A stretch of 64,000 bases of DNA from a virus: the IMG/VR virus record IMGVR_UViG_3300016469_000426, positions 3,785 through 67,784 of that record; one strand, written 5' to 3'. Within the stretch, counting starts at the first letter, position 1, and every line of letters starts with the position of its first letter. The notes under the pieces are model-generated. The model did not search any database. It saw only the letters and a program-made list of their open reading frames with translations, and was not told the origin of the DNA. This document shows, one piece after another, positions 2,655-62,748 of this stretch. A program made the position numbers and the translations under genes.

Positions 2655-2739
2655 TATTATCTATTGTAGACGTTAATAAACAAAAAAGGGAGAGGAGAAA
2701 TAAACTCTCACTCTCCCGTATTTTGAAGTAATATGTTCC

Positions 2740-5750: not shown

Positions 5751-5767
5751 GGTATCGTGTTTTTATG

Positions 5768-23410: not shown

Positions 23411-25006
23411 TTAAGCTAGTTCTACAGATAGTACTCCAGCATTAGTAAAGATACGATACCTGTTACCATTAGTTCTGTCTAACACAATGAAACCGCGATT
23501 ATTGGTGAGAGTTTCAACATCTCCGTTTACAGTAAGTTTAGATGTGATACCAGCATTAGTACCAATACCTACGTTTCCGGAACCATTCAGGTAAGAATCT
23601 GCTGTTTTAGATAAAGCAAAGCTTGGAGTAGTAGAGAGCCATCCCAAGAATAAAGCATCATCATGAGTACTTTCCATGTATCCGGAAGAGTAATTACCGT
23701 ATCCCATTACAATAGCTCCTCTATGAGAAGCTTTAGTAAAATACCCAACAGCTACACCATTTTGTGCACGAGCTTCAGCAAAAGAACTTAAGCTTAGTGA
23801 ATCTACAGAATTAGCTATGGTAGATACCCCGATGGCAATAGAATTTGCACCTGAAGCGGCAGCTAGATAAGCTATAGCCACCGAAAAGTTTCCAGAAGCA
23901 GTACATTGGGTACCAAGAGCCAGTGCCGCAAAAGCAGAGGCTGTACCAAAAGAACCGATAGCTGCGGCATAATCTGCTGTAGCAACAGATTGTGTACCTA
24001 GAGCTGTAGTTGATGGCCTTGTTCCGGAAGAATAAATCCCCATTACTACCGCGTTTGCACCTGTTGCGCTGGCCTCCTGTCCTATTACGATAGAAGCTCC
24101 GCTACCTAATGTGGTATTAGCATTAATACCCATGATAATACCACCATCATCTCTCAGATATGCAAGAGCTGCATCAGCAAAATTACGAATGTGTAAACTG
24201 TAAGTAGAATTACCAGCTCCAGCTCCTTTAACATTAAAAGTAGCATTACCGGTAATAGCATTCACCATTACTTTGGTATTCTGAATATAAATTTCTGGAA
24301 CTACACTGATTGCAGGAGAAGCCCCATCTACAATAAGAGCAATACTAGATATGTTGCTCTCGTTAGAAATTACAAGATTACCGGTGGTGCTTTTTGAAAG
24401 AACATATGCTCCTTGATACCAAGTCCCGACCTCATCTGTTTTCCCGTGAAGTGTAAGATGTGCAGTATCTGAACCACCAACCATGTATGATAAACGAGCA
24501 TATCTTGTAGGTCCAGTTTCCAACATCGCAGTTACAGGCTGACCTGCTCCGCTTTTATTTACATGTAGTTCATAAAGAGGAAGAATATTGATACCAACTT
24601 TTGCGTCATTGAGTGTTCCAAACTGAAGACTATGCCCACCAAAATTTACTGATCTTGGACCAGTAAATGTTCCATTACTGTTATAGATATTTACACTTAC
24701 CGGTGGAGGTAAAAGATCTATGAAATCTTCAATACTAACTGCAAAATTTTGGTAACTGCTTTGATTTCTGGAATCTTTTACTTTTTTACCAATGACCAAA
24801 AGATCTGCATTTTCTAGTTGCAATTCTGTAATCAAACGGCCGTTAGCTATAATGGCGGGAAAGTTTACAACATCCATGTGATAACTGTATTTACTATAAT
24901 ATACAGAATTATCATCACTTTGCCAAATTTTTTGTTGCCCGGGAACGATTTGAACGTCCGTTCTCTGGTCCAAAACCAGATGTCCTGCCGCTAGACGACC
25001 GGGCAT
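23411..25006 (-). CDS. tail fibre / receptor-binding protein
   Basis: 531 aa, Gly/Ala/Ser/Asn-rich beta repeats (GANSIAIGV, GNVGIGTNAG). Confidence 0.55.
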   Translation of the reverse strand: MPGRLAAGHLVLDQRTDVQIVPGQQKIWQSDDNSVYYSKYSYHMDVVNFPAIIANGRLITELQLENADLLVIGKKVKDSRNQSSYQNFAVSIEDFIDLLPPPVSVNIYNSNGTFTGPRSVNFGGHSLQFGTLNDAKVGINILPLYELHVNKSGAGQPVTAMLETGPTRYARLSYMVGGSDTAHLTLHGKTDEVGTWYQGAYVLSKSTTGNLVISNESNISSIALIVDGASPAISVVPEIYIQNTKVMVNAITGNATFNVKGAGAGNSTYSLHIRNFADAALAYLRDDGGIIMGINANTTLGSGASIVIGQEASATGANAVVMGIYSSGTRPSTTALGTQSVATADYAAAIGSFGTASAFAALALGTQCTASGNFSVAIAYLAAASGANSIAIGVSTIANSVDSLSLSSFAEARAQNGVAVGYFTKASHRGAIVMGYGNYSSGYMESTHDDALFLGWLSTTPSFALSKTADSYLNGSGNVGIGTNAGITSKLTVNGDVETLTNNRGFIVLDRTNGNRYRIFTNAGVLSVELA

Positions 25007-25015
25007 TGTAATCAG

Positions 25016-25087
25016 AGACCCTGGAGAGATTCGAACTCCCGACCATCTGATCCGTATTCAGAAGCGCTTCCGCTGCGCCACAGGGTC
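25016..25087 (-). tRNA. tRNA-Arg (anticodon ACG)
   Basis: Hand-folded: acceptor GACCCTG/CAGGGTC, T-loop TTCGAAT, anticodon loop ATACGGA. Confidence 0.7.
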
Positions 25088-25094
25088 AAATTGG

Positions 25095-25167
25095 GGTGAC
25101 CGGCGAGATTTGAACTCGCAACCTTCTGCGCCACAAGCAGACGTTCCACCGATTGAACTACGGCCAC
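25095..25167 (-). tRNA. tRNA-His (GTG)
   Basis: Acceptor GTGGCCG/CGGTCAC, loop TTGTGGC. Confidence 0.7.
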
Positions 25168-25169
25168 AG

Positions 25170-25243
25170 AGCCCGAGGACGGAATCGAACCGCCGACCCT
25201 CTGTTTACAAAACAGTAGCTCTAACCCGCTGAGCTACTCGGGC
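25170..25243 (-). tRNA. tRNA-Thr (TGT)
   Basis: Acceptor GCCCGAG/CTCGGGC, loop TTTGTAA. Confidence 0.7.
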
Positions 25244-25251
25244 TAATATTG

Positions 25252-25324
25252 TATCCCGGACGGGATTTGAACCCGTGTGACCAGACTGAAAACCTGGGAT
25301 CCTAGACCACTAGATGACCGGGAC
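25252..25324 (-). tRNA. tRNA-Glu (TTC)
   Basis: GTCCCGG acceptor, 3-bp D-stem, loop TTTTCAG. Confidence 0.7.
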
Positions 25325-25389
25325 ATGTGAGTGTTCGGGAGACCTGGTACTATATCTCCTCCTTTATCAGGCGTCATTATCACTCGTTG

Positions 25390-25463
25390 TTGCGGGAATG
25401 GGATTCGAACCCATGTCGTTCGGCTTATGAGACCGAGCTGGAACCGCTCCAGTCCACCCCGCA
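25390..25463 (-). tRNA. tRNA-Met/Ile2-type (CAT), atypical 4-nt acceptor-to-D linker
   Basis: Acceptor TGCGGGG/TCCCGCA, loop CTCATAA, D-stem CTGG/CCAG. Confidence 0.55.
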
Positions 25464-25471
25464 TTATTTTG

Positions 25472-25545
25472 TAGGCCCTACCGGGTTTGAACCGGTGACC
25501 TTTACCTTATAAGAGTACTGCTCTGACCAGCTGAGCTAAGGGCCT
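25472..25545 (-). tRNA. tRNA with anticodon TAT (Ile, AUA-reading)
   Basis: Acceptor AGGCCCT/AGGGCCT, loop CTTATAA, one G-A mismatch at top of anticodon stem. Confidence 0.5.
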
Positions 25546-25554
25546 ATTACTTGG

Positions 25555-25626
25555 AACCCCTGACCAGACTCGAACTGGTAACCTTGAGCTTAGAAGTCTC
25601 TTGCTCTTCCATTGAGCTACAGGGGC
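25555..25626 (-). tRNA. tRNA-Arg (TCT), weak anticodon stem
   Basis: Acceptor GCCCCTG/CAGGGGT, loop CTTCTAA. Confidence 0.5.
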
Positions 25627-25634
25627 AGCTTCAG

Positions 25635-25706
25635 TTCCCCCGCCGGGAGTCGAACCCGGCCCCATAGATTAAAAGTCTATTGCCTACACCAGTTTGCTAC
25701 GAGGGA
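25635..25706 (-). tRNA. tRNA-Lys (TTT), weak D-stem
   Basis: Acceptor TCCCTCG/CGGGGGA, anticodon stem ATAGA/TCTAT, loop CTTTTAA. Confidence 0.55.
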
Positions 25707-25808
25707 ATGTTAAATCATGCTGACTTACGTCTGCACTTTATCTTCTTTCGTATCAAGCTGTTGTATAACATGACTGTTAAATCTTCTTTTTTGCTTTGTT
25801 AATTGTTG

Positions 25809-25886
25809 TAGGAACAGAAGGATTCGAACCTTCGACTGACCCTGCTTGTAAGGCAAGCGCTCTGAACCGGGCTGAGCTATGCTCCT
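25809..25886 (-). tRNA. tRNA-Val (TAC), 7-nt variable loop
   Basis: Acceptor AGGAGCA/TGTTCCT, loop CTTACAA. Confidence 0.6.
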
Positions 25887-25894
25887 ATTTTAGT

Positions 25895-25965
25895 TGACAT
25901 GGCAGGGATTGAACCTACGACCTCCCGCGTATCAGGCGGATGCTCTACCGCTGAGCTACATGTCA
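25895..25965 (-). tRNA. tRNA-Ile (GAT)
   Basis: Acceptor TGACATG/CATGTCA, loop CTGATAC. Confidence 0.7.
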
Positions 25966-25972
25966 ATGTTTG

Positions 25973-26045
25973 CGGACTGTATAGGGTTCGAACCTATGAC
26001 CCTCGCCTTAACAGGGCGCCGCTCAGCCAACCGAGCTCACAGTCC
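25973..26045 (-). tRNA. tRNA-Asn (GTT)
   Basis: Acceptor GGACTGT/ACAGTCC, loop CTGTTAA. Confidence 0.65.
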
Positions 26046-26049
26046 ATTG

Positions 26050-26126
26050 CGGTCTATGTCGGAGTCGAACCGACCTGATGTCCCGCGTGACAGGCGGGTG
26101 TCCACAACCAAGCAGACCCATAGACC
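26050..26126 (-). tRNA. tRNA-Asp (GTC), 7-nt variable loop
   Basis: Acceptor GGTCTAT/ATAGACC, stem CCCGC/GCGGG, loop CTGTCAC. Confidence 0.6.
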
Positions 26127-26131
26127 ATTAG

Positions 26132-26205
26132 AGCGAGTGATGAGGCTCGAACTCACAACACCCTGCTTGGAAGGCAGGTACTCTAGCCAATTGAGCTACA
26201 CTCGC
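26132..26205 (-). tRNA. tRNA-Gly (TCC)
   Basis: Acceptor GCGAGTG/CACTCGC, loop CTTCCAA. Confidence 0.7.
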
Positions 26206-26318
26206 AGTATCAACACTGATGAGGCTTTTTCAGAACTTAAGCTACACCCAGCATAGCATACGGCCTTTAACCGTTCCTCATCCTCCCGCTTCTGGATTAC
26301 AGGAGTTGTTTCAACTTG

Positions 26319-26393
26319 TGGAATGGCTGGGATTTGAACCCAGGACCTTCTGCTTGCAAAGCAGCTGCTCGACCAGACCGAGCTCCGCACCCC
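26319..26393 (-). tRNA. tRNA-Ala (TGC) with G3-U70
   Basis: Acceptor GGGGTGC/CCATTCC (G3.U70, one C-C mismatch), loop TTTGCAA. Confidence 0.55.
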
Positions 26394-26447
26394 TAGTGAC
26401 CCTTTTCTTTAATTTTCAGTTTGTGGCGGCCGATCCATATCTGCTAG

Positions 26448-26520
26448 TCGGAGTTGCTGGACTCGAACCAACGGTCTCCTGGTCCCAAACCAGGCGCGAT
26501 ACCAACTTCGCTAAACCCCG
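26448..26520 (-). tRNA. tRNA-Pro (TGG)
   Basis: Acceptor CGGGGTT/AACTCCG, loop TTTGGGA. Confidence 0.7.
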
Positions 26521-26523
26521 TAA

Positions 26524-26560
26524 ACAAAAAAAGCCCCTGATTTCTCAGAGGCTCTTTCTT
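26524..26560. terminator. hairpin flanked by A7 and T-rich tracts (bidirectional terminator-like) inside tRNA array
   Basis: agcccctga tttc tcagaggct, flanked by aaaaaaa and ctttctt. Confidence 0.4.
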
Positions 26561-26751
26561 ATCAAGTTAATCCAAAATTCTTATTTCATGATGGACACAA
26601 CAAGAGCCTCTACGCAATTCGGTTCGTCACCTTTGCGCACGATATTCATTTGGGCCGTATGTTGTATGTTTCTCATTTGCGTTACAAATATACAAACAAT
26701 TTATACATGTGCAACACAACATGTATATTTTTTTTTGATTTTCTTTATATG

Positions 26752-26825
26752 TACTCCCGACCGGACTCGAACCGGTAGCTTACGGATTTTAAGTCCGCTG
26801 TGTTTACCCATTTCACCACGGAAGT
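26752..26825 (-). tRNA. class-I tRNA with anticodon TAA (Leu codon UUA) but short variable loop and Gln/Glu-type 3-bp D-stem; identity uncertain
   Basis: Acceptor ACTTCCG/CGGGAGT, stem GCGGA/TCCGT, loop CTTAAAA, variable AAGCT. Confidence 0.5.
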
Positions 26826-26829
26826 ATTG

Positions 26830-26907
26830 TACCCTCTGAGAGACTCGAACTCTCACCCGAAGACTAGATCCTAAGTCTAGCGCGTCTACCAATTTCGCCA
26901 AGAGGGC
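26830..26907 (-). tRNA. tRNA-Leu (TAG) with short (9-nt) variable arm
   Basis: Acceptor GCCCTCT/AGAGGGT, stem CTAGA/TCTAG, loop CTTAGGA. Confidence 0.55.
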
Positions 26908-26914
26908 GTATTAG

Positions 26915-27000
26915 CGGAGAACAGTGGCCCTGATCCACAATCGTAATATTACGATCAGACTGCTTAGCAGGCAGCTCCTACCCAGGTAGGTTTATTCTCC
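26915..27000 (-). tRNA. tRNA-Ser (GCT)-like, class II, atypical T-loop
   Basis: Acceptor GGAGAAT/GTTCTCC, loop CTGCTAA (as in E. coli Ser-GCU), long variable hairpin ATCGTAATATTACGAT, T-loop ATCAGGG. Confidence 0.45.
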
Positions 27001-27004
27001 ATTG

Positions 27005-27077
27005 AGGTACCGGCGTGATTCGAACACGCGTACTCGAGTTTTGCAGACTGAGGACTAAACCGCTCATCCACGGTACC
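27005..27077 (-). tRNA. tRNA-Cys (GCA)
   Basis: Acceptor GGTACCG/CGGTACC, loop CTGCAAA. Confidence 0.6.
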
Positions 27078-27083
27078 TTGTTG

Positions 27084-27156
27084 CACATGAGGAAGGGGTC
27101 GAACCTCCGACACCTGGTTTTGGAGACCAGTGCTCTACCATCTGAGCTACTCATGT
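27084..27156 (-). tRNA. tRNA-Trp (CCA)
   Basis: Acceptor ACATGAG/CTCATGT, loop CTCCAAA. Confidence 0.7.
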
Positions 27157-27160
27157 ATAG

Positions 27161-27251
27161 CGGAAAGCGGAGGACCCGACCCCCAGTCCAGTTACCCAGA
27201 CACCCGGTTTTCAAGACCGGTCGCGGCTCCAATGCCACTGCTTCACTTTCC
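27161..27251 (-). tRNA. tRNA-Ser (TGA), class II, atypical T-loop
   Basis: Stem CCGGT/ACCGG, loop CTTGAAA; similar to E. coli Ser-UGA; T-loop TCGGGT. Confidence 0.5.
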
Positions 27252-27256
27252 AATTG

Positions 27257-27340
27257 TGGGACCCGGTGGACTCGAACCACTCCTCCGAAGAGACCGAATT
27301 TACAGTCCGGCTGCCGTATCCAAGACGACTTTCAGTTCCC
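27257..27340 (-). tRNA. tRNA-Tyr (GTA), class II
   Basis: Stem CCGGA/TTCGG, loop CTGTAAA, variable hairpin CTCTTCGGAG. Confidence 0.6.
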
Positions 27341-27348
27341 ATGTTTTG

Positions 27349-27421
27349 TGGAGCCACCTGGTATCGAACCAGGATCTCAGGATTTTCAGTCCCACGCATA
27401 GACCGTCTTTGCTATAGCTCC
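27349..27421 (-). tRNA. tRNA-Phe (GAA)
   Basis: Acceptor GGAGCTA/TGGCTCC, loop CTGAAAA. Confidence 0.7.
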
Positions 27422-38218: not shown

Positions 38219-38237
38219 AAGTTGCCCTGATGAGTCT

Positions 38238-38837
38238 TTGAAAATTAACAAAAAGGTGTATCTTTGCGGCATGACTTCAGCCGTATACATCATCAGAAAT
38301 ACTGTAAACAGCAAGATTTATGTCGGAAGTTCTCAAGATCTAAAAGGAAGATGGAAAACCCATCTTGATAAACTTCGTATAGGTAGGCATCACAACAAGA
38401 GACTTCAACACCATTACAATAAATACGGAGAACAATCTCTCATCATGGAAATTCTGGAAGAGGTATCGCACAATCTCTTAATACTTAGGGAACAGTACTG
38501 GATGGACAAACTGCAACCTTGGTTTAATCTTTGTCCTATAGCTGGAAGCTCCAAAGGAAGGGTATGTACTCAAGAACATAGAGCAAACTTATCTAAGGCT
38601 CACATTGGCAAAAAACATTCCGTAGAAGCCAGATCAAAAATGTCCGCTTCTCATAAAGGTACCAAGAAACCTTGGGCAAGAGGTAAAGGCAAATTAACTA
38701 TAGGACAGGTGCTGAAAATAAGAGATGAGCTCAGTATCAAATCTTGTGCTCAACTCGCAAAAGAATATGGAGTGAAGAGTTCAGCTATTAGCAAAATCAA
38801 ACAGGGTAGAACCTGGAACACCCTTTCTTTGTCCTGA
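38238..38837 (+). CDS. GIY-YIG homing endonuclease (I-TevI-like, with NUMOD3 repeats and C-terminal HTH)
   Basis: VYIIRNTVNSKIYVGSSQDLKGRWKTH (GIY-x10-YIG...R...H); three KGK/GK...S.E.R.K.S repeats; ...KSCAQLAKEYGVKSSAISKI. Confidence 0.8.
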   Translation: MKINKKVYLCGMTSAVYIIRNTVNSKIYVGSSQDLKGRWKTHLDKLRIGRHHNKRLQHHYNKYGEQSLIMEILEEVSHNLLILREQYWMDKLQPWFNLCPIAGSSKGRVCTQEHRANLSKAHIGKKHSVEARSKMSASHKGTKKPWARGKGKLTIGQVLKIRDELSIKSCAQLAKEYGVKSSAISKIKQGRTWNTLSLS

Positions 38838-39436
38838 TGATGTCAGGGGTGTATAAATATCAGACGAAACACTATGTGTCGGCAATGCACGAAGTTTAGC
38901 CGCCTAGACGCCATTCGAGCGAAGGCTGCCGGATACCTGGATCCGTGACAAAACCACAAGGTGGTCGAGTCTAAACCAGGAGAAATTGCTGGGAGCAAAA
39001 GTCGGGTGAGATTGTAAATCATCTCACTCGGCACTCTCAGCTTCTCATTAAAGGCTGCATACCGCACTTTAAAACAACGATCTGTTAAATCGAAAAGACG
39101 CAGCCTGCTCCTCTTAAGGACTCCGAACAGCACCTACAAACCACTTGCCTTTTAAGCAAACCCGGTGGAGTCCGCCCCTTTTTAAGGGATGCTTGCAGCA
39201 CTAAAAACCCATTTGAAACATGGCTTAGTGGCATCCTGCACCTATTGACTATAATGGATACATCAGCACTCTGAAACTATAAATCAGAGAGCCCGAAAGG
39301 GCAAACCTGGGAGAACCCTTTGCTCAATTAGCTAAGGTGGGTACCGTATCCTGTTATGTAGTCAACCCCACCGCCCGTGAAAAGGTGGTGGGTTCTCCCT
39401 CAATCCTCAAGTAACAACCATTAAATCTAAGCCGTA
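38838..39436 (+). ncRNA. 600-nt ORF-poor, highly structured region downstream of GIY-YIG gene
   Basis: GNRA hairpin gcccGAAAgggc, GGGAGAACCC...GGGTTCTCCC long-range repeat, GGACTCC...GGAGTCC. Confidence 0.3.
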
Positions 39437-40546
39437 ATGAGCAGACTTGTTAATGCAGCACGTAGCTATGACGCTACAACAAATAAAGGAGCAGTTACTC
39501 ACTCTACCTCCTTGAACTTCTGTCTCGATATGTTCTTCCTTGCAGGAGCATCTCGCAATATGGACGAGAAGTCTATGATCACCATCTTTGAAAGAGCTTA
39601 TGCTCAAGATCCAAACATTGCGGCCAAGATTTTATTCTGGTCTCGTGATGCTCGTGGTGGTGCAGGTGAGCGCCGATTCTTTCATACAATTATGCGACAT
39701 ATTCTGGATAAATATCCTGAGGTTGCAGACAAACTAATGGTACATGTACCAGAGTTTGGGTATTGGAAGGATGTGTTCGCAATAGAGAAACCGAACGAGA
39801 ACAACCTTAACTGGTTGAAACATTCTCTTGAGGAATCTCCTAATGCGAATCTCTTGGCCAAATGGTTCCCGCGCAAAGGTCCATGGTTTGTAGCCATGCA
39901 TCGTTATCTTGGTATGACGCCTAAAGAATTTCGCAAGAAACTCGTGGCAATGACTAAGGTAGTAGAAACGCAGATGTGTAACCAAGAATGGAAAGGTATC
40001 AAGTACGAAGCAGTACCTTCTATCGCGATGAATAAATACCGCAAGGCATTTTTCAAACACGATGAAGAACGTATGAAAGCATACGTTGAGGCCGTACATT
40101 CAGGTGAAGCTAAGATTAACGCATCAGTACTATTCCCTCATCAATTGTATCAAGCAATTAATAAAGGGGAGAATGAGCGTGCAGTCGAAGCACAGTGGAA
40201 TAACCTACCAGATTATATGGAAGGATCAACAGAACGCATCACTCCGGTGTGTGATGTATCTGGAAGTATGATGGGATTACCTATGGACGTAAGTGTAGCG
40301 CTGGGGATTTATATCTCTGAGCGTAACAAAGGTATCTTCAAAGATGCCTTCTTGACTTTCTCTGAAAGACCTGAGATGCAATACCTGAAAGGGTCACTTG
40401 CTCAAAGAATGCGTCAGCTGAATCAAGCTCCATGGGGTGGTACCACAAATCTGCAGTCGACCTTTGACTTAATCCTCAACAGTGCAATCAGAGAGAAAAT
40501 CTCTGAGGATGAAATGCCAACCAAGATCTTAATCATCTCGGATTAA
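39437..40546 (+). CDS. vWA-domain protein, 5' exon (frame stops at TAA 40544-40546 at intron start)
   Basis: MIDAS motif DVSGSM; ends ...KILIISD; preceded by taaatctaagccgtaATG. Confidence 0.65.
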   Translation: MSRLVNAARSYDATTNKGAVTHSTSLNFCLDMFFLAGASRNMDEKSMITIFERAYAQDPNIAAKILFWSRDARGGAGERRFFHTIMRHILDKYPEVADKLMVHVPEFGYWKDVFAIEKPNENNLNWLKHSLEESPNANLLAKWFPRKGPWFVAMHRYLGMTPKEFRKKLVAMTKVVETQMCNQEWKGIKYEAVPSIAMNKYRKAFFKHDEERMKAYVEAVHSGEAKINASVLFPHQLYQAINKGENERAVEAQWNNLPDYMEGSTERITPVCDVSGSMMGLPMDVSVALGIYISERNKGIFKDAFLTFSERPEMQYLKGSLAQRMRQLNQAPWGGTTNLQSTFDLILNSAIREKISEDEMPTKILIISD

Positions 40547-41504
40547 TCTTAGTCCCTCTCAGTAGAAATACTGATGAGAAAACGCTTTAAATTGCGGGAA
40601 ACTCTTTAGAACTCTAATTACCAACTCATCACAGTAATGTAGATGAGGGTGTTACTAATCATAACAGTATGGTAAAAACATTAGAGATTAGACAATCCGC
40701 AGCCAAACTTGTAAAATTATTTGTGTACGTGGAATTTAAACTGTATATTTGTTGTATGAAAACAAGACAATATACACTAGATGAAGACTTCTTCTCTGTC
40801 ATAGACAGTGAAGAAAAGGCTTATTGGTTAGGCTTTATATTTGCAGATGGTTCAGTAACTGTCCGGAGTGCTGGACAAGCCGTACTGCAAATAAAATGTC
40901 ATATTAAAGACGCAGCTCATCTAAATAAATTCCACAAGGATATTGGTACAAACAAGCCTATTAAATATTATAGTCAGAAAACAGTCTACTCAAATAGTAA
41001 GTATGCTCAATCAGCTTTAATATCTAATACACTTGTACAAGATTTAATCTCAAAAGGATGTGTTCCCAGAAAGAGTTTGATTCTCAAATGGCCTAACAAT
41101 CTTACAGAAGAATTAGCTCCTCATTTTATGAGAGGTTATTTTGACGGAGACGGCTCAATATGTGAAACAACTCAGAAAACCAAGCATGGTATCTGGAAAC
41201 ACCCTGCAATCAGTATTTGCGGAACAAAAGAGTTCCTTACCGAGTTTGCTAAAAGATTGAATATTGAAAAGTGTATCTATCCTGAGTACAGAAAAAAAGA
41301 CAAAAATTGTTGGTCTCTCAAGCTCAGCTCAAAAAAAAGATGTAAATCTTTCTTTGACTTGCTTTATAAAGATCAACATGTATGTCTATCTAGAAAACTT
41401 GAAAAGTTTTTAGAATTACAAGGAGGTTCAACGACTACAATAAGCGCACCTACACAGGTGATGGTATAGTCTGATCTTACATGAGAATGTAAGCTAACAT
41501 AATG
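40544..41504 (+). mobile_element. group-I-like intron interrupting vWA gene, carrying LAGLIDADG endonuclease
   Basis: Exon 1 ends on U (40543), downstream in-frame continuation MEFDSACSY... begins after G 41504; boundaries inferred from protein continuity. Confidence 0.5.
40669..41469 (+). CDS. LAGLIDADG homing endonuclease (double-motif)
   Basis: AYWLGFIFADGSV and MRGYFDGDGSI motifs. Confidence 0.8.
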   Translation: MVKTLEIRQSAAKLVKLFVYVEFKLYICCMKTRQYTLDEDFFSVIDSEEKAYWLGFIFADGSVTVRSAGQAVLQIKCHIKDAAHLNKFHKDIGTNKPIKYYSQKTVYSNSKYAQSALISNTLVQDLISKGCVPRKSLILKWPNNLTEELAPHFMRGYFDGDGSICETTQKTKHGIWKHPAISICGTKEFLTEFAKRLNIEKCIYPEYRKKDKNCWSLKLSSKKRCKSFFDLLYKDQHVCLSRKLEKFLELQGGSTTTISAPTQVMV

Positions 41505-41795
41505 ATGGAGTTTGATTCAGCTTGTAGTTATCGTAGATCAGGAACAAACCTAGATATCATCCGCGAAAAGTACCAGCAAGCTGGTTACAAGATGCCGGAG
41601 ATTATCTTCTGGAATGTAAATGGTCGTATCGGCAATTCTCCTGCACAGAAGAGTGATAAGGGAATCGGTCTTGTATCAGGATTCAGCCCGTCTATCTTGA
41701 AGTCAGTATTGAAAGGTGAGATCTACTCTCCTGAACAACTGATGATGGATACAGTGAATGTTGATCGATACAGACTCATCCAGGTAACTGAATAA
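41505..41795 (+). CDS. vWA-domain protein, 3' exon
   Basis: In frame with exon 1 after removing 40544..41504; exact 3' splice site within +/-3 nt. Confidence 0.5.
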   Translation: MEFDSACSYRRSGTNLDIIREKYQQAGYKMPEIIFWNVNGRIGNSPAQKSDKGIGLVSGFSPSILKSVLKGEIYSPEQLMMDTVNVDRYRLIQVTE

Positions 41796-41844
41796 GATCG
41801 GAGTATTATCCCGCTTGGCAACAGAAGGGATATCATGATATTGC

Positions 41845-41882
41845 GAGAGAGCTGTGACTTCACCACAGCTCTCTTGTTTTTC
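41845..41882 (+). terminator. Rho-independent terminator after vWA gene
   Basis: gagagagctgtg acttcacc acagctctct tgttttt. Confidence 0.55.
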
Positions 41883-41958
41883 ATCTTTGAGTAAAGAGGA
41901 ACAACTCAAAGCTCTGAAGGAAAGCTCGTTCCTCGAAAAACCATCTAAAAATCTAAGC

Positions 41959-42732
41959 ATGAAAATTGAACAAGTGCGAAAGCACCCAGCGCACGCGCTG
42001 CTTGCTGCAACTATCGGTGAAAAAGCAGCCGATGAAGCCATCATCAAAATGATGGAGGAAGAAATCAAGAAGAACCAAGCAGAGACTGAGTTCTCTACCG
42101 GAACTAAACGTATCATTCTTCCAGCCACAATGAATAAGTTGCAGGCAGCAAAAGAATTGAAGCGTCAGTGGGATGACGAAGAACAGGTAATTAATGTGGA
42201 CAGAATGTTCGGTGAATGGAACTGGAGAGATGTCCTTGTTGCAGTAAAGAAAGCTGCAGAACGTCACTTTGGTTGGATCCAAGGTAAGACTGTACATACC
42301 TTCTTCGGTACTCAGCGCCCTACAGACATTGAGATTGTCGTTGATATCAAAGACGGCAAGAAAATTACTGAGACCTGTTTCTACGGACAGTTCACCGCAA
42401 CTGTTTGGGAAGATGCAGTGGTCGAAGTAGGACCGAGCCACATCAGCGCAACTGTGAAGAAGCGCTATGCTCATGAAGCAAAAGAATTTTTCGACCTGAT
42501 CCAGAAAATCCTGGACACTGAGTCGATCTACCGTGGACGTGCAATCACTGTTACAAAGCAGACTTCACCATGGGGTGAGATCTCTTTGGATTTCGATATC
42601 TTCGAGATGAAGGTATCCGACAAGATTGTATTGAACGAAGACGTGGACACTGTTGTTCGCAACTTCATCATTGACGATCTTGGTGAAGATGGCAAGCGTT
42701 GCTATCTTTTCTCAGGTGGTTATGGAAATGGT
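41959..42732 (+). CDS. AAA+ ATPase, 5' exon (ends GGYGNG, first half of Walker A)
   Basis: Start after ctaaaaatctaagcATG; ...DGKRCYLFSGGYGNG then ORF frame runs into intron (stop 42751). Confidence 0.65.
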
Positions 42733-43756
42733 AGAATCAGAAATTTTGCGTAACTTTGTCACATGACAAAGTATGAACAAGGTGAAGAGTTATACAGACA
42801 AGGTATGTTCTTAAAAGACATTGCTCTGGAGCTAAAAATATCAGCTCATAGACTATCTGTATATCTCAGGAAAAGAGGTGTTCCGAAGAACCCTCATCAT
42901 TACAAGGCAACTGTAAAGTCTACTCTTAGAACCGACATCTTCAAAGATATCGATACTAAGGAGAAAGCCTATTGGCTCGGTTTTATCTTTGCTGACGGGT
43001 ATGTTTCAGAAAGAAACGTTTTTGAAGTGGCGCTATCCATTAAGGATATCTCTCACTTAGAAAAGCTAAAGCTCTTTCTAGGGATAAGCAATCCTATAAA
43101 GATTACAGACACAAGTTGTAGATTATATGTAACTGACAAGACTTTTGTTGCACACCTTAATAAGCACGGTGTTGTACCAAGGAAATCTCTTATCCTCAAG
43201 TATCCATCAATTGATCGAGCCTTTGACAAAGCTTTCATGATGGGCTATTTTGATGGAGACGGATGTCTTACATATAATCGTGTTAGAAAAAGACTTCAGC
43301 TCAGTCTAATAGGAACACCAGAGTTCCTAGAAGCATATAAGAAGAGACTTTCTACTACAGCAAAGCTGACTCTTTATCAGGATAAAAGACATAAGCCACA
43401 AACAAGATATATCTCCGCAGCTGGAAAACACGCTGTAGAAATCTATCAGCAACTTGTAGATGATTCCCCTATACACCTTGAGAGAAAACGCAAAGTATTC
43501 TCTGCCGCGCTAGGTAGTAATACTTAGTGTTATTAACGGGTAAAAACGGTGAAGGCTGAAATGCTAATACCGTGCTAAGACTTCTGATTACGAAAGGCAG
43601 AAGTACAGTGTAACGCATAGTCGGTGAATAAATATAATCCGACCAAGAGTATCCGTCACCCAAACAGTAAAGCTGTGGGTGAAAATGTATGCTGAGCTCA
43701 CACGAAAGACAAGTGTGAGAATCACAGGATAAAAAGCCTGTGAGATAACAAAACTG
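42733..43756 (+). mobile_element. group-I-like intron in AAA+ ATPase gene, carrying LAGLIDADG endonuclease
   Basis: 5' exon ends on U (ggT|aga), intron ends on G 43756; 244-nt structured tail after HEG ORF; splicing fuses GGYGNG|KT. Confidence 0.65.
42763..43527 (+). CDS. LAGLIDADG homing endonuclease with N-terminal HTH
   Basis: AYWLGFIFADGYV and MMGYFDGDGCL motifs. Confidence 0.8.
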   Translation: MTKYEQGEELYRQGMFLKDIALELKISAHRLSVYLRKRGVPKNPHHYKATVKSTLRTDIFKDIDTKEKAYWLGFIFADGYVSERNVFEVALSIKDISHLEKLKLFLGISNPIKITDTSCRLYVTDKTFVAHLNKHGVVPRKSLILKYPSIDRAFDKAFMMGYFDGDGCLTYNRVRKRLQLSLIGTPEFLEAYKKRLSTTAKLTLYQDKRHKPQTRYISAAGKHAVEIYQQLVDDSPIHLERKRKVFSAALGSNT

Positions 43757-44422
43757 AAAACAGAAACAGCTATGCGTATCGGTTCAGCCGGCCTTACAAA
43801 AGGTATGGCGTACTTCTACTGCAAAGATGCCGATGTATTCCACATGCTTCTTGGCCAAGCTAAGAACTACCAGCCGTGCATCGTGTTCCTTGAGGACGTG
43901 GATGAAATCGGTGCAGGTACCAAGCGTGATGCCGACATGAATAAGATCCTGAATACTCTGGATGGTGTACAGACTAAGGGTAACAACCTTACTGTAATCT
44001 TTACAACCAACCATGAGAAGCGTATCAACCCGGCTCTCCGTCGCCCAGGTCGTATTGACCTTGTGGTGAACTTTGAGAATCCGGACAAAGTTGCCGTTGC
44101 AGAAATCTATCATCGTTATCTGGCTCCATTGGATACAGAAAAGTTGTTGGATTACAACGTGCTTGCTGATCGCACTCCGGACTGTCCTGGTGCAGTTGTT
44201 GCTGAAATTGCTAAGCGTGCAGTTAAACTCTGCAAGAAGCGTGGCGCAGTAAATGATGACCTGGTAAAAGCAGCAGTTGATTCCATGAAGCATCATTTGA
44301 AACTGATGAAAGAAGAAGTGGAAGAACCACGTACTGGTGACATGACCATCACGGTTAAGAATGCCAGCATGAACGTTTCTGAAGCAGCTTCTAAGAATGG
44401 AGCGGCTGTCAAAGCCAATTAA
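43757..44422 (+). CDS. AAA+ ATPase, 3' exon
   Basis: Begins KTETAMRIG...; Walker B CIVFLEDVDE, sensor-1 TTN, Arg finger ALRRPGRID. Confidence 0.65.
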   Translation, partial: KTETAMRIGSAGLTKGMAYFYCKDADVFHMLLGQAKNYQPCIVFLEDVDEIGAGTKRDADMNKILNTLDGVQTKGNNLTVIFTTNHEKRINPALRRPGRIDLVVNFENPDKVAVAEIYHRYLAPLDTEKLLDYNVLADRTPDCPGAVVAEIAKRAVKLCKKRGAVNDDLVKAAVDSMKHHLKLMKEEVEEPRTGDMTITVKNASMNVSEAASKNGAAVKAN

Positions 44423-57012: not shown

Positions 57013-57080
57013 GGAGGACGTAGCTCAGTTGGTAGAGCAACGGTTGCCGTGGGTCGTAGGTTCGAGTCCTACCATCCTCC
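57013..57080 (+). pseudogene. tRNA-like sequence with truncated anticodon arm (tRNA pseudogene or tRNA-derived element)
   Basis: GAGGACG TA GCTCAGTTGGTAGAGC (canonical D-arm) then ACGG-TTG-CCGT mini-hairpin, T-arm GTAGG TTCGAGT CCTAC, acceptor CATCCTC; ~68 nt. Confidence 0.4.
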
Positions 57081-61178: not shown

Positions 61179-61427
61179 ATGAGTAATCTAGAAAGTGTAA
61201 ACTTACAAGAAGTACAGATGAAACTGTACGAGAGGTTAAAACCCTCAGGCTGGGGAGATAAGCTTAAAGGCTTTCTCCTTAGCGATGATTTCGGAAAGAT
61301 ACTAGAGGTGCTACTTGCTGAGGCAAGAGATAATCGAAGGTTTACTCCCGTAATCAAGCAGCTATTTAGAGCATTCGAAGAATGCCCTTATAGCGATCTC
61401 AAGGTAGTCATGATCGGTCAGGATTAG
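61179..61427 (+). CDS. ung: uracil-DNA glycosylase (family 1), 5' exon ending ...KVVMIGQD
   Basis: FTPVIKQLFRAFEECPYSDLKVVMIGQD matches the UDG ...F.AF..TP...VKVVILGQDPYH block; frame stops at TAG 61425-61427. Confidence 0.7.
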   Translation: MSNLESVNLQEVQMKLYERLKPSGWGDKLKGFLLSDDFGKILEVLLAEARDNRRFTPVIKQLFRAFEECPYSDLKVVMIGQD

Positions 61428-62280
61428 TTGCACAGATCAACAAAAAGCTATACCTTCGTCAACAAAACTGTTGTGTATGGTATATGAGAGAATAGCTCCA
61501 ATGAGAAACTATGACAAGACAACTGATACGCGTAAGTGTAAGAAGTGTAATGAGTGGAAACCTCTATCAGAGTTTAGTAGTAGAGTAAGGATCGCAAGCC
61601 CTACTACCAAAGACCTTGTTAAGAAGGTACCTACATTATACTATAGAAGTGAGTGTAAAAGTTGTTCACTTCTATCAATACGTAAACCTGAATACTGTGG
61701 ACCTGATGCTCGTAGGAAACAACATGCATTAGATCCTCGTAAAGTGATGCTTGTTCATGCTCGAATCAGAGCTAAGAAGAAGGGTCTAGTATTTGGTATT
61801 ACTTACGATGATATCATAGTTCCTAAAGTCTGTCCATTACTTCAGATACCTATCCAAGTATCTAAGGGAAAAATAGGACCTGGTAGTCCTAGTATAGATC
61901 GCTTAGACCCTACAAAAGGTTATGTGAAGGGAAATGTCATGGTTATCTCTCATAAAGCAAATACTGCAAAGAATACACTAACTCTTGCAGAGCTTGAATT
62001 GTTGGTCCGTAACTTAAAACGGGTCCTGAATAAAGAGGAAGAATTGCTGGAAAGCTAATGAAATATGGGGCTCGGCATGGTAACCAGTCCATAGTCTAAG
62101 GAGGGAAGTACTCCTGTGGGCTCCACCATATTTTTATGCCAATCAGCAGCCGAGCCCAAGGGGAGACTTGGGAAGGTTCAGAGACTAGGGACACTACGGT
62201 GAGCCCAGAGCATCCTCCACTCAATAGAGTGATGATATAGTCCGATCCTCGTGGAAACATGAGACAAATGGATATAGCCG
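61425..62280 (+). mobile_element. group-I-like intron in ung carrying HNH endonuclease
   Basis: 5' exon ends on U 61424, intron ends on G 62280; 222-nt structured tail after HEG. Confidence 0.6.
61471..62058 (+). CDS. HNH homing endonuclease
   Basis: SIDRLDPTKGYVKGNVMVISHKANTAKN HNH core; N-terminal CKKC...C zinc motif. Confidence 0.7.
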   Translation: MCMVYERIAPMRNYDKTTDTRKCKKCNEWKPLSEFSSRVRIASPTTKDLVKKVPTLYYRSECKSCSLLSIRKPEYCGPDARRKQHALDPRKVMLVHARIRAKKKGLVFGITYDDIIVPKVCPLLQIPIQVSKGKIGPGSPSIDRLDPTKGYVKGNVMVISHKANTAKNTLTLAELELLVRNLKRVLNKEEELLES

Positions 62281-62748
62281 TATCCATATCCAAACGTAGC
62301 AGACGGAATAGCTTTTTCATGCGGAAACGATGGAAAAGTTCAGGCCTCTTTACGATACATGTTCAAGGAAATAGAAGATACCGTTTATCCGGAAGGATAC
62401 ACATGGGATCCTGATCTGGCCCGCTGGTCAAAGCAAGGAATCTTAATGCTCAACATTGCTCTTACTACAACAATAAACCGAGTAGGTCAACACTATATAT
62501 TGTGGCAACCTTTTCTGGCATACTTGTTCGATATCTTATCGTTCAACAACCCAGGGCTTGTGTATGTGTTTATGGGTAAGAAAGCACAAGAATGGGCCAA
62601 ATCTATTCCTGAGAATAACTGGAAGCTGATGTGTAGTCACCCTGCATCCGCAGCACATCAGAACCAGGAAAAGTGGGATTCAGGTGACATATTCAACAAG
62701 ACAAGCGATCTAGTTCTTAAACACTACAAATACAAAATCATATGGTAG
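62281..62748 (+). CDS. ung: uracil-DNA glycosylase, 3' exon
   Basis: (Y)PYPNVADGIAFSCG...SLRYMFKEIEDT...WSKQGILMLNIALTT...HPASAAHQ aligns with UDG HGPNQAHGLAFSV...PPSLLNMYKEL...QGVLLLN...HPSP; 3' splice site 62281 or 62284. Confidence 0.65.
   Translation, partial: YPYPNVADGIAFSCGNDGKVQASLRYMFKEIEDTVYPEGYTWDPDLARWSKQGILMLNIALTTTINRVGQHYILWQPFLAYLFDILSFNNPGLVYVFMGKKAQEWAKSIPENNWKLMCSHPASAAHQNQEKWDSGDIFNKTSDLVLKHYKYKIIW

What the first reader, a model, noticed from the sequence alone, without database searches (positions are those of the whole stretch)
39437..41795. vWA (MIDAS) protein gene interrupted by a second LAGLIDADG-bearing intron
Exon 1 carries DVSGSM and ends ...KILIISD exactly at a U followed by TAA. 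A 961-nt insert holds a free-standing LAGLIDADG ORF with its own start and frame, so it is not an intein. The ORF resuming at 41505 (MEFDSACSYRRSGTNLD...) is in frame and completes the vWA fold. The two LAGLIDADG proteins (40669.. and 42763..) are paralogs, which suggests intron homing between neighbouring genes.
Basis: partly seen in the sequence, partly recalled or inferred. Interest (0 to 1): 0.75.

Follow-up and report, generated by a model that had tools for sequence, protein, structure and literature searches.

The report
Mobile intron splits phage Ro60-like gene
A phage gene for a Ro60-like RNA-binding protein is interrupted, exactly at its most conserved motif, by a self-splicing group I intron that carries its own homing endonuclease gene; this is a well-known kind of selfish element, here in a new host gene.

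Summary
ORF 39437..40543 and ORF 41505..41795 are two exons of one 465-aa gene (Pfam DUF2828 + DUF7788; predicted fold closest to Ro60). They are separated by a 961-nt insert, 40544..41504. Three relatives 92-96% identical in DNA lack the insert exactly. Thirty uninterrupted homologues read ...IISD|MEF... with no gap at the junction. The insert is a group I intron. It has a U·G splice-site pair in P1, helices P2-P9, the P3/P7 pseudoknot and a terminal G. In four related introns from viral metagenomes, 42 of 71 predicted pairs show compensatory changes. The LAGLIDADG gene (true start 40756, not 40669) lies in the P6a loop, and its last codons overlap P7, P3 and P8. Rfam scores the intron below threshold only because the ORF splits the core. 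The same allele recurs in three independent metagenome contigs. Splicing itself is inferred, not shown. One inference fails: the neighbouring LAGLIDADG intron (42733..43756, in the Walker A motif of an AAA ATPase) has an unrelated ribozyme core and a different ORF position, so recent homing between the two genes is not supported. The host is a distant crAss-like phage, a group known to be intron-rich. It is a new member of a known kind.

The parts
39437..40543 (+). Exon 1 of the Ro60-like gene (369 codons): DUF2828 helical part and the first half of the vWA domain, including the MIDAS motif DVSGS. It ends at the Asp369 codon GAT.
   Evidence: Pfam DUF2828 E 1.1e-36 and DUF7788 profile positions 5-113 of 221. 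Colinear with intron-less L001, L084 and L098 up to 40542/40543.
40544..41504 (+). Group I intron 1, 961 nt, absent from close relatives.
   Evidence: Exact absence in L001, L084 and L098. Partial RF00028 matches on both sides of the ORF. Consensus fold with four related introns gives 71 pairs, 42 with compensatory changes. G+C is 34-36% against 42-44% in the exons.
40540..40555 (+). P1: GGAU^UAA / UUAGUCC, with the U40543·G40552 wobble at the 5' splice site. The 3' strand is the internal guide sequence.
   Evidence: Read from the sequence. The U·G pair is invariant in all five aligned introns while the flanking pairs covary. A synonymous TCT->TCG change next to the site lengthens P1 relative to intron-less alleles.
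40556..40578 (+). P2 hairpin with a GAAA tetraloop.
   Evidence: RNAalifold columns 26-45, compensatory changes in 6 of 8 pairs.
40583..40587 (+). P3 5' strand (CGCUU). It pairs with 41442..41446 (AAGCG) and forms a pseudoknot with P7.
   Evidence: Pairs in all five introns with different sequences: CGCUU/AAGCG, GCUU/AAGC, AUUC/GGAU, GCUG/CAGC.
40593..40701 (+). P4 (UGCGGG/UCCGCA), P5 (UCU/AGA) and a three-helix P5 extension (P5a, b, c) with GNRA loops and an A-rich strand.
   Evidence: RF00028 alignment of AAAUUGCGGGAAA ... CAAUCCGCAGCCAA. RNAalifold shows covariation in P5, P5a, P5b and P5c.
40702..40714 (+). P6 (GCC) and P6a (CUUGUAA) 5' strands. Their partners are 41416..41427 (UUACAAG ... 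GGU). P6a closes the loop that holds the endonuclease gene.
   Evidence: P6a is 6-15 bp long and covaries among relatives.
40756..41469 (+). LAGLIDADG homing endonuclease gene (237 aa from ATG 40756) with two motifs, YWLGFIFADGSV and HFMRGYFDGDGSI. Its last ~17 codons overlap P6a', P6', P7, P3', P8 and P7'. The stop codon UAG lies inside UAUAGUC.
   Evidence: Pfam PF14528. 171 relatives in IMG/VR whose homology starts at this ATG. The 266-aa ORF product 40669..41469, which contains this gene, is identical in three other contigs.
41431..41472 (+). Catalytic core, 3' half: P7 5' strand A[C]GACUA (41431-41437), P3' (41442-41446), P8 hairpin CACCU/AGGUG (41447-41460), P7 3' strand UAGUCU (41467-41472).
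   Evidence: RF00028 match of 29 bits, E 1.8e-4. RNAalifold recovers P7 and P8. The outer P7 pair covaries A-U to G-C.
41476..41504 (+). P9 hairpin (CUUACAU GAGA AUGUAAG) and the conserved 3' tail CUAACAUAAUG, ending in the terminal G at 41504.
   Evidence: The tail ..AACAUAAUG or ..AUCAAUG is shared with L004, L005 and L006, and every one ends in G.
41505..41795 (+). Exon 2 (96 codons plus stop): the second half of the vWA domain, starting at the invariant Met370.
   Evidence: DUF7788 profile positions 114-193. Colinear with intron-less relatives from 41505. Junction alignment.
41843..41877 (+). Intrinsic-terminator-like hairpin after exon 2 (14 bp plus a T run). No comparable site lies on the + strand inside the intron.
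42733..43756 (+). Neighbouring intron 2 (1024 nt) in the Walker A motif GGYGNG|KT of the AAA ATPase gene (41959..42732 + 43757..44422). The LAGLIDADG ORF 42763..43527 comes first, followed by a 230-nt ribozyme core.
   Evidence: Absent from L001, L084 and L098. The joined protein is 479 aa and 96% identical to L001's uninterrupted protein. Core alignment A3: 49 pairs, 93.9% paired, 0 of 500 shuffles reach the observed covariation. No RF00028 hit at E<=10.

Best explanation
Window 39437..41795 is a single phage gene for a 465-aa Ro60-like protein (helical ring plus a vWA domain with a MIDAS site). A mobile group I intron of 961 nt interrupts it directly after the codon of the MIDAS aspartate, inside the invariant motif ISD|MEF. 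The expected mechanism is as follows. Exon 1, the intron and exon 2 are transcribed together. The intron RNA folds into the P1-P9 ribozyme. A free guanosine bound in P7 attacks after U40543, which is held by the U·G pair in P1. The freed exon 1 end then attacks after the terminal G41504, joining GAU to AUG and restoring the reading frame. The intron also carries a double-motif LAGLIDADG endonuclease gene in its P6a loop. In a mixed infection this enzyme is expected to cut the intron-less allele near ...CATCTCTGAT|ATGGAGTTTG..., so that repair copies the intron in (homing). Four things are shown: the exact insertion polymorphism, the two-exon gene, the covariation-supported ribozyme fold, and the intact endonuclease ORF. 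Three are inferred: splicing, endonuclease activity and target, and co-transcription.
For: (1) The exon halves fit exactly. Pfam DUF7788 positions 113|114 meet at the junction. Thirty of the 30 closest homologues are uninterrupted and read ISD|MEF with no indel. P0001 is 465 aa and 93% identical. (2) L001 (92% nt) and L084 and L098 (96% nt) lack 40544..41504 to the base. (3) RF00028 aligns to both flanks of the ORF, covering P1, P3, P4 and P6 and then P7, P8 and P9. (4) The ORF-deleted intron aligned with four related introns (L004, L005a, L005b, L006) gives an independent RNAalifold consensus with P1, P2, P4, P5, P5a-c, P6, P6a, P7, P8 and P9. That is 71 pairs, 42 with compensatory changes. 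The U·G splice-site pair is invariant. P3 and the outer P7 pair also covary. (5) In all five introns, at four different insertion sites, splicing after the U·G pair and after the terminal G restores a conserved protein motif in frame. (6) A related intron (L040) passes the Rfam threshold at 58 bits. (7) The only substitution near the site relative to L084 is synonymous and extends P1. (8) The allele recurs at 99.5-99.9% identity in three other contigs from independent samples. (9) There is no terminator inside the intron and a strong one after exon 2. (10) The AlphaFold model of P0001 (pLDDT 86) matches Ro autoantigen 1yvr (E 2.8e-6) and Thermus phage Ro60 9l5y_B (E 4.7e-6), then MIDAS/vWA domains. 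The junction follows beta strand 363-368. (11) crAss-like phages are documented as intron-rich, including LAGLIDADG-bearing introns (PMC7886860).
Against: There is no RNA evidence, so splicing has not been observed. RF00028 stays below its gathering score in the window (29 and 20.3 bits against 50). I found no convincing P10 pairing between the guide sequence and the first bases of exon 2. The covariation rests on five sequences, two of them close to each other, and the automatic alignment mis-registers P3 and P8 for some rows, so P3 was checked by hand. Fold similarity to Ro60 is moderate (TM 0.44), and there is no sequence-level match to any solved structure. None of 32 IMG/VR relatives, nor the 120 listed protein homologues, carries an intron at this site. 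Homing at this site is therefore inferred from presence/absence only.
Confidence: 0.88

Rival explanations
1. The insert is a splicing-dead relic, or a plain endonuclease-gene insertion. The gene would then be a pseudogene, or be expressed as two separate polypeptides (369 aa and 96-97 aa, the second started at ATG 41502 or 41505) that might reassemble.
For: Exon 2 begins with ATG ATG. No RNA data exist. RF00028 is below threshold. No P10 was found.
Against: Every core helix is intact and covaries with relatives. The first ATG is part of the conserved intron tail ..AACAUAAUG, shared by introns in other genes, and the second encodes the invariant Met370, so neither needs to be a start codon. 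No purine-rich ribosome-binding site is visible in the sequence upstream. The break lies in the middle of the vWA sheet, directly after strand 363-368. None of more than 700 homologues is split. A synonymous change improves P1. The exons are 96% identical to intact relatives with no frameshifts.
Confidence: 0.08
2. The insert is an intein, spliced at the protein level.
For: LAGLIDADG domains also occur in inteins, and the insertion is at a conserved catalytic motif.
Against: A TAA stop follows exon 1 directly, with more stops in that frame. The endonuclease ORF is in another frame. There are no Hint/intein matches. The ribozyme core is present.
Confidence: 0.005
3. The insert is an assembly chimera or other artefact of the contig.
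For: The window comes from unknown, probably metagenomic, sequence.
Against: The same arrangement is found at 99.5-99.9% identity in three further contigs from independent samples and assemblers. The boundaries are exact to the base relative to three intron-less relatives.
Confidence: 0.01
4. Introns 1 and 2 are copies of one element that recently homed from one neighbouring gene into the other.
For: The two LAGLIDADG proteins are paralogues (36% identity, E 5e-34). The genes are adjacent and both 5' exons end in G(A/G)U.
Against: nhmmer finds no similarity between the two ribozyme cores in either direction. The ORF positions differ (P6a loop versus 5' of P3). The P7 sequences differ (GACUA/UAGUC versus GCAUA/UAUGC). 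Each intron has closer relatives in other phages than in its neighbour: intron 1's endonuclease is 41-42% identical to those of L004 and L005, and intron 2's core matches L029 at E 4.6e-35.
Confidence: 0.03

Closest known systems
Phage group I introns with an endonuclease gene in a peripheral loop (for example T4 td with I-TevI in P6a, or the SPO1, Twort and Bastille introns), as reviewed in PMC3984707
   Same: It is a self-splicing-type RNA inserted at a highly conserved codon of a phage protein gene. The free-standing endonuclease ORF sits in the P6a loop and runs into the core. It shows presence/absence polymorphism among close relatives and has lower G+C than its host gene.
   Different: The endonuclease is LAGLIDADG, whereas the review lists GIY-YIG, HNH, PD-(D/E)xK and EDxHD as the usual phage types. 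The host gene is a Ro60-like RNA-binding protein rather than a DNA-metabolism or structural gene. The core has a three-helix P5 extension, and no extra helices lie between P7, P3' and P8. I could not assign a subgroup with the tools available.
Intron-rich crAss-like phages (Delta and Zeta groups; PMC7886860) and Jug jumbo gut phages (PMC12880540)
   Same: The host is a Bacteroidota-type phage lineage (TerL about 25% identical to Flavobacterium FpV4-type and Bacteroides crAss-like phages). Several group I introns and homing endonucleases, LAGLIDADG among them, split its genes. This window alone holds three such introns plus one free-standing GIY-YIG gene.
   Different: Those papers report introns mainly in the major capsid protein, polymerase, primase, terminase and nrdD genes. 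I found no report of an intron in a DUF2828/Ro60-like gene. I saw no sign of stop-codon recoding in this window.
Rfam RF00028 (Intron_gpI)
   Same: The 5' and 3' parts of the intron align to the model's P1, P3, P4 and P6 and to its P7, P8 and P9 regions, with the conserved J3/4-P4, J6/7-P7 and J8/7-P7' sequences.
   Different: The scores (20.3 and 29 bits) are below the gathering score of 50, because about 700 nt of ORF interrupt the model. A related intron (L040) and the window's third intron (61973..62264) do pass, at 58 and 73.9 bits.
Ro60 / TROVE-vWA proteins, including Thermus phage phiLo Ro60 (PDB 9L5Y, PMC12135203)
   Same: The predicted fold of the host protein has an N-terminal all-helical ring part and a C-terminal vWA domain with DxSxS. 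The best structural matches are Ro autoantigen and phage Ro60. A conserved non-coding RNA region lies upstream of the gene, which is where the phiLo Y-like RNAs lie.
   Different: The Pfam family is DUF2828/DUF7788, not TROVE. There is no sequence-level match to any PDB entry. The TM-score is only 0.44. RNA binding and a Y RNA partner are untested.

Membership tests
Group I intron | The 5' splice site follows a U that forms a U·G wobble pair with the internal guide sequence in P1. | tested here: met
   GGAU^UAA / UUAGUCC, with U40543·G40552. The U·G column is invariant in 5 of 5 related introns while neighbouring P1 pairs covary.
Group I intron | The intron ends in a G (omega G) directly before exon 2. 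| tested here: met
   G41504 precedes A41505. This is the only junction compatible with the intron-less alleles. The conserved ..AAUG tail is present in relatives.
Group I intron | A conserved core of paired regions P3-P9, including the P3/P7 pseudoknot, supported by covariation. | tested here: met
   RNAalifold gives 71 pairs, 42 with compensatory changes. P3 and the outer P7 pair were checked by hand in five introns.
Group I intron | A guanosine-binding P7 with a G-C pair next to a bulged nucleotide. | tested here: met
   A[C]GACUA / UAGUCU, the same layout as the RF00028 consensus. Binding itself was not tested.
Group I intron | A score at or above the Rfam RF00028 gathering threshold (50 bits). 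| tested here: not met
   29.0 bits (41340..41493) and 20.3 bits (40534..40810). The roughly 700-nt ORF in P6a splits the model. The related intron in L040 scores 58 bits.
Group I intron | Self-splicing with exogenous guanosine. | not testable with these tools
   This needs in vitro transcription and splicing, or RNA sequencing.
LAGLIDADG homing endonuclease | The LAGLIDADG domain, present as two motifs each with its acidic residue in a single-chain enzyme. | tested here: met
   PF14528 at 40.1 bits (cut-off 22.5) and PF00961 at 23.0 bits (cut-off 23.1). The motifs are GFIFADGSV and GYFDGDGSI. There is no match to solved structures by sequence.
LAGLIDADG homing endonuclease | Encoded inside a self-splicing element that is polymorphic (present or absent) among close relatives. 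| tested here: met
   The ORF is in the P6a loop. The intron is absent in L001, L084 and L098 and present in L116, L117 and L118.
LAGLIDADG homing endonuclease | Site-specific cleavage of the intron-less allele. | not testable with these tools
   The candidate target is read from L084: AAGATCTTGATCATCTCTGAT|ATGGAGTTTGATTCAGCTTG.
Ro60-like / vWA (MIDAS) protein, Pfam DUF2828 + DUF7788 | Pfam family matches above the curated cut-offs across both exons. | tested here: met
   DUF2828 at 127 bits (cut-off 29). DUF7788 at 79.9 bits for exon 1 and 71.3 bits for exon 2 (cut-off 27.1), with contiguous profile positions 113|114.
Ro60-like / vWA (MIDAS) protein, Pfam DUF2828 + DUF7788 | A Ro60-type fold (helical ring plus vWA domain) with MIDAS residues DxSxS ... 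T ... D. | tested here: met
   The AlphaFold model of the 93%-identical P0001 has pLDDT 86.2. Foldseek matches 1yvr (E 2.8e-6), 9l5y_B (E 4.7e-6), then MDN1 MIDAS and vWA domains. D273-V-S-G-S277 and D369 are invariant. The assignment of D369 to MIDAS is by analogy with integrin I domains. Metal binding was not tested.
Ro60-like / vWA (MIDAS) protein, Pfam DUF2828 + DUF7788 | A partner non-coding RNA (Y RNA). | tested here: inconclusive
   A conserved non-coding stretch of about 560 nt, preceded by a hammerhead ribozyme, lies upstream. It matches no Rfam family, and binding is untested.
Intein | An in-frame insertion with no stop codons, translated together with the host protein. | tested here: not met
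   TAA lies at 40544..40546, with further stops in that frame. The ORF is in a different frame.

The most novel reading that the evidence does not exclude
The intron may be only one of three homing-endonuclease invasions of a single RNA-centred module. That module consists of a hammerhead ribozyme, a conserved non-coding RNA of about 560 nt, a Ro60-like protein gene and an AAA ATPase gene. The most novel reading not excluded concerns the GIY-YIG gene at 38271..38837. It may have lodged in stem II of the hammerhead in the way endonuclease genes lodge in peripheral loops of group I introns. The ribozyme would then still cleave at 38880/38881, the insertion would be phenotypically silent, and the released RNA would be a Y-RNA-like partner of the Ro60-like protein. 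That would make a self-cleaving ribozyme a second kind of safe harbour for homing endonuclease genes.
Probability: 0.15. Interest if true: 0.7.

Novelty: new member of a known kind. Interest (0 to 1): 0.35.

Why it matters
For annotation, three genes in this window (the Ro60-like gene, the AAA ATPase gene and a uracil-DNA glycosylase-like gene) would be called as fragments unless the introns are recognised. The standard Rfam model misses two of the three introns. For biology, the finding adds a Ro60-like RNA-binding protein to the list of phage genes targeted by mobile introns. It also shows that LAGLIDADG-bearing group I introns form at least two widespread families in viral metagenomes: 171 related endonuclease stretches were found in IMG/VR. 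The endonuclease, with a clean presence/absence pair and a defined target of about 40 bp, is a candidate for a new rare-cutting enzyme. None of this changes the current understanding of group I introns.

Tried and rejected
- Megablast of 39300..42000 against 50,697 phage records found nothing. Only protein-level searches worked.
- Sequence searches of the PDB gave no usable match for the joined protein or the endonuclease. The fold claim rests on a predicted model.
- RF00028 at the gathering threshold finds only the third intron. At E<=10 it gives two sub-threshold pieces for intron 1 and nothing for intron 2.
I used RNAalifold on hand-built mini-introns instead.
- The automatic alignment A1 puts P3 and P8 out of register for two rows. 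I therefore did not run the column-based pair counter on it and checked P3 by hand.
- I looked for a P10 pairing between the guide sequence and exon 2 and found none.
- No gene with exactly the 369-aa exon 1 product is on record. The endonuclease look-up succeeded instead.
- NCBIfam has no model for either LAGLIDADG protein or for the Ro60-like protein. PADLOC has no hit for the Ro60-like protein.
- I considered stop-codon recoding, which is known in crAss-like phages. I rejected it because the stop is TAA, the exon 1 frame hits multiple stops inside the insert (TAA at 40544 and two TAG codons within the first ~70 nt), and long standard-code ORFs fill the window.
- I tested whether tRNA-like Rfam hits in relative L104 explain the upstream non-coding RNA. 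They are ordinary tRNA genes with insertions of about 45 nt and do not align to the window.
- I tested whether a second CUGAUGA box at the end of the GIY-YIG insert rebuilds a compact hammerhead. Rfam finds no hammerhead in 38800..38905 even at E<=10, so this stays speculative.
Full report
**Observation**

- An ORF from 39437 codes for 369 residues. It contains DVSGSM and ends ...KILIISD with the codon GAT (T at 40543), followed directly by TAA.
- A second ORF opens at 41502 with ATG ATG GAG TTT and runs to 41795.
- Between them lie 961 nt (40544..41504) with lower G+C than the flanks (34-36% against 42-44%).
- This stretch holds an ORF, 40669..41469, in a different frame. It matches Pfam LAGLIDADG_3 (E 4.5e-10).

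**One gene in two pieces**

- Pfam DUF7788 aligns to the first ORF up to profile position 113 of 221 and to the second from position 114. The first ORF also carries DUF2828.
- Joining 39437..40543 to 41505..41795 gives a 465-aa protein. It aligns in a single piece over 98-99% of its length to 703 phage records.
- Its best database relative (P0001) is also 465 aa and 93% identical.
- In an alignment with the 30 closest homologues, all uninterrupted, the junction falls inside the invariant string ISD|MEF, with no gap on either side.

**The insert is a precise presence/absence polymorphism**

- A Logan contig (L001, 92% nt identity) and two IMG/VR contigs (L084 and L098, 96%) are colinear with the window. 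They lack 40544..41504 to the base: window TCGGAT|...|ATGGAG against TCCGAC|ATGGAA and TCTGAT|ATGGAG.
- None of 32 IMG/VR loci with this gene is split.
- The intron-bearing allele is not an assembly accident. The identical 266-aa ORF lies in the same context in three more contigs from independent samples, at 99.5-99.9% nt identity.

**The insert is a group I intron**

RF00028 does not reach its gathering score of 50 bits here. It does align to both sides of the ORF:
- 40534..40810 (20.3 bits) covers P1, P3, J3/4-P4 (AAAUUGCGGGAAA) and P4'-P6 (CAAUCCGCAGCCAA).
- 41340..41493 (29 bits, E 1.8e-4) covers J6/7-P7 (UCAACGACUA), P8, J8/7-P7' (GGUAUAGUCU) and P9.

By eye, P1 is GGAU^UAA/UUAGUCC, with U40543 paired to G40552. 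The intron ends in G41504.

For independent support I looked for relatives. The endonuclease has 171 related stretches in IMG/VR. nhmmer finds the intron's non-coding halves next to several of them.

I removed the ORF loop from the window intron and from four relatives: L004, two introns in L005, and L006. These sit in metallopeptidase/vWA genes of the DUF2201 type at three other sites. RNAalifold on the resulting alignment recovers P1, P2, P4, P5, a three-helix P5 extension, P6, P6a, P7, P8 and P9. That is 71 pairs, of which 42 show compensatory changes, and the splice-site U·G is invariant.

P3 is pseudoknotted with P7, so RNAalifold cannot predict it. It pairs in all five introns with different sequences, and the outer P7 pair switches from A-U to G-C.

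In all five introns, cutting after the U·G pair and after the terminal G restores a conserved protein motif in frame. A more distant relative of the 5' half (L040) passes RF00028 at 58 bits.

The only substitution next to the splice site relative to L084 is a synonymous TCT to TCG. It lengthens P1 from GAU/GUC to GGAU/GUCC.

**Where the endonuclease gene sits**

- P6a (CUUGUAA at 40708..40714 with UUACAAG at 41416..41422) closes the loop that holds the ORF.
- The ATG at 40669 lies inside the P5 extension, and homology to relatives begins about 30 codons later. The likely start is therefore ATG 40756 (237 aa).
- The last 17 or so codons (..GGSTTTISAPTQVMV) are read from P6', P7, P3', P8 and P7', and the stop UAG lies within UAUAGUC. 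The same peptide (GSTTTIS) recurs in relatives because it is encoded by the conserved core.
- Both LAGLIDADG motifs keep their acidic residues.
- No terminator-like site lies on the + strand inside the intron, and a 14-bp one follows exon 2.

**The host gene**

An AlphaFold model of P0001, built on 62 homologues, has mean pLDDT 86. Its best matches among solved structures are Ro autoantigen (1yvr, E 2.8e-6) and the Ro60 of Thermus phage phiLo (9l5y_B, E 4.7e-6). MIDAS and vWA domains follow.

The intron sits directly after strand 363-368, at Asp369. By analogy with integrin I domains this is the last MIDAS residue, which is an inference.

**The host genome**

The window encodes a portal protein, a large terminase and a major head protein. 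The terminase is about 25% identical to those of Flavobacterium FpV4-type and Bacteroides crAss-like phages. crAss-like phages are documented as intron- and intein-rich, LAGLIDADG-bearing introns included (PMC7886860), as are Jug phages (PMC12880540). A 2014 review lists GIY-YIG, HNH, PD-(D/E)xK and EDxHD as the usual endonucleases of phage group I introns (PMC3984707), so LAGLIDADG is the less common type.

**The part of the interpretation that fails**

The second LAGLIDADG element (42733..43756) splits the AAA ATPase gene inside Walker A (GGYGNG|KT). It too is absent from L001, L084 and L098. The joined 479-aa protein is 96% identical to L001's intact one.

Its ORF comes first, and a 230-nt core follows. 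That core is homologous to the stretch right after LAGLIDADG ORFs in about 35 IMG/VR loci. On 12 sequences a structure with group I topology has the following support:
- The structure comprises P3, P4-P6, an extra hairpin, P8, P9 and a P7 pseudoknot.
- It is 93.9% paired, against 36-43% for slid controls.
- None of 500 shuffles reaches the observed covariation.

Its P7 reads GCAUA/UAUGC instead of GACUA/UAGUC, and Rfam does not see it at all.

The cores of introns 1 and 2 show no nucleotide similarity, and the proteins are 36% identical. These are two different introns with related endonuclease genes, not a recent hop between neighbours.

**Side findings**

A third intron (61425..62277) splits a uracil-DNA glycosylase-like gene at GQD|PYPYP. 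It carries an HNH-like ORF, and its core scores 73.9 bits against RF00028.

A GIY-YIG gene (38271..38837; TIGR01453, 105 bits) forms the third insert missing from L001 and L084.
- It sits inside stem II of a type I hammerhead ribozyme. That ribozyme is intact in the relatives (RF00163, 26.7 bits, E 0.0024 in L001).
- The ribozyme shows compensatory changes in all three stems across L001, L002, L085 and L110.
- Its predicted cleavage site is C38880|G38881.

About 560 nt of non-coding sequence follow, up to the start of the Ro60-like gene.
- This stretch is as conserved as the coding sequence.
- It is partly supported by covariation.
- It matches no Rfam family.
- Another relative (L099) has a pistol ribozyme in this position.
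- In Thermus phage phiLo, Y-RNA-like RNAs lie in the non-coding region upstream of the Ro60 gene (PMC12135203). This makes a ribozyme-processed Y-like RNA a testable idea here.

**Verdict**

The finding is real and correctly interpreted, apart from the suggestion of homing between neighbouring genes. It is a new member of a known kind: a LAGLIDADG-bearing mobile group I intron in a phage gene, in a new host gene. Splicing and homing remain inferred.

Noticed in passing
window 38221..38886: A type I hammerhead ribozyme (stem I GUUGCC/GGCAAU, core CUGAUGA, GAAA, stem III CAC/GUG, predicted cleavage C38880|G38881) is interrupted in stem II by a 613-nt insert. The insert consists almost only of a GIY-YIG endonuclease gene (38271..38837; TIGR01453, 105 bits). 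Relatives L001 and L084 have the intact 52-nt ribozyme (RF00163, 26.7 bits, E 0.0024). L002, L085 and L110 show compensatory changes in all three stems. Whether the interrupted ribozyme still cleaves is unknown. In the minimum-free-energy fold, its core pairs with the end of the insert.
   Followed up: partly
window 38826..38886: The last bases of the GIY-YIG insert contain a second CUGAUGA box, which holds the ORF's TGA stop. It is preceded by UUGUC, which could pair with GGCAA of stem I, and followed by U-GUC...GAC-GAAAC. This could rebuild a compact hammerhead downstream of the endonuclease gene. Rfam finds no hammerhead in 38800..38905 even at E<=10, so this is speculative.
   Followed up: partly
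window 38881..39436: About 560 nt of non-coding sequence lie between the hammerhead cleavage site and the start of the Ro60-like gene. It is as conserved as the coding sequence in L001 and L084. Its last ~180 nt are conserved across relatives only ~70% identical in protein, including a long-range helix GGGAGAACC/GGUUCUCCC that covaries. It matches no Rfam family. It could be a Y-RNA-like partner or a leader of the Ro60-like mRNA.
   Followed up: partly
window 42733..43756: A second LAGLIDADG-bearing intron lies in the Walker A motif (GGYGNG|KT) of an AAA ATPase gene (41959..42732 + 43757..44422). Its 230-nt core has strong covariation support and group I topology but an unusual P7 (GCAUA/UAUGC). 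RF00028 misses it completely. About 35 IMG/VR loci carry the same core right after a LAGLIDADG ORF, and the exon 2 starts (AAAAC...) suggest that several sit at the same Walker A site.
   Followed up: yes
window 61425..62277: A third group I intron (core RF00028, 73.9 bits, at 61973..62264) splits a uracil-DNA glycosylase-like gene at GQD|PYPYPNVADGIAFSC (exons 61179..61424 and 62278..62748). It carries an HNH-like ORF (61471..62058) that overlaps the 5' part of the core.
   Followed up: partly
window 24934..27421, minus strand: A block of 23 tRNA genes covers most amino acids, with no suppressor anticodon among them. A further Rfam tRNA hit lies at 57014..57080 (+), which ARAGORN did not call.
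   Followed up: no
L099 1616..1684; L104 926..1041 and 1288..1408: A relative of the Ro60-like gene has a pistol ribozyme (42.8 bits, above the gathering score) upstream, where the window has the hammerhead. Another relative has two tRNA genes with ~45-nt insertions (Rfam 47-49 bits; not called by ARAGORN) in the same upstream region.
   Followed up: partly
L090, L094, L095, L097, L099, L100 at about 3760..3930: Six relatives show weak sub-threshold alpha_tmRNA (tRNA-like) matches, overlapping or directly downstream of the stop codon of the Ro60-like gene. The window has a plain terminator hairpin at the equivalent place.
   Followed up: no
L005 1460..2555, 2616..3717 and about 5600..5810: One IMG/VR contig carries two introns of the intron 1 family in a single DUF2201-type metallopeptidase/vWA gene. 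One splits the HELxH zinc motif. A further group I intron lies in the adjacent AAA ATPase gene. This is the same kind of vWA-plus-AAA gene pair as in the window.
   Followed up: partly
L084 728..1543: The closest relative has about 815 nt that the window lacks, between the homologues of 37790 and 37797. This may be yet another mobile insert in this hot-spot region.
   Followed up: no
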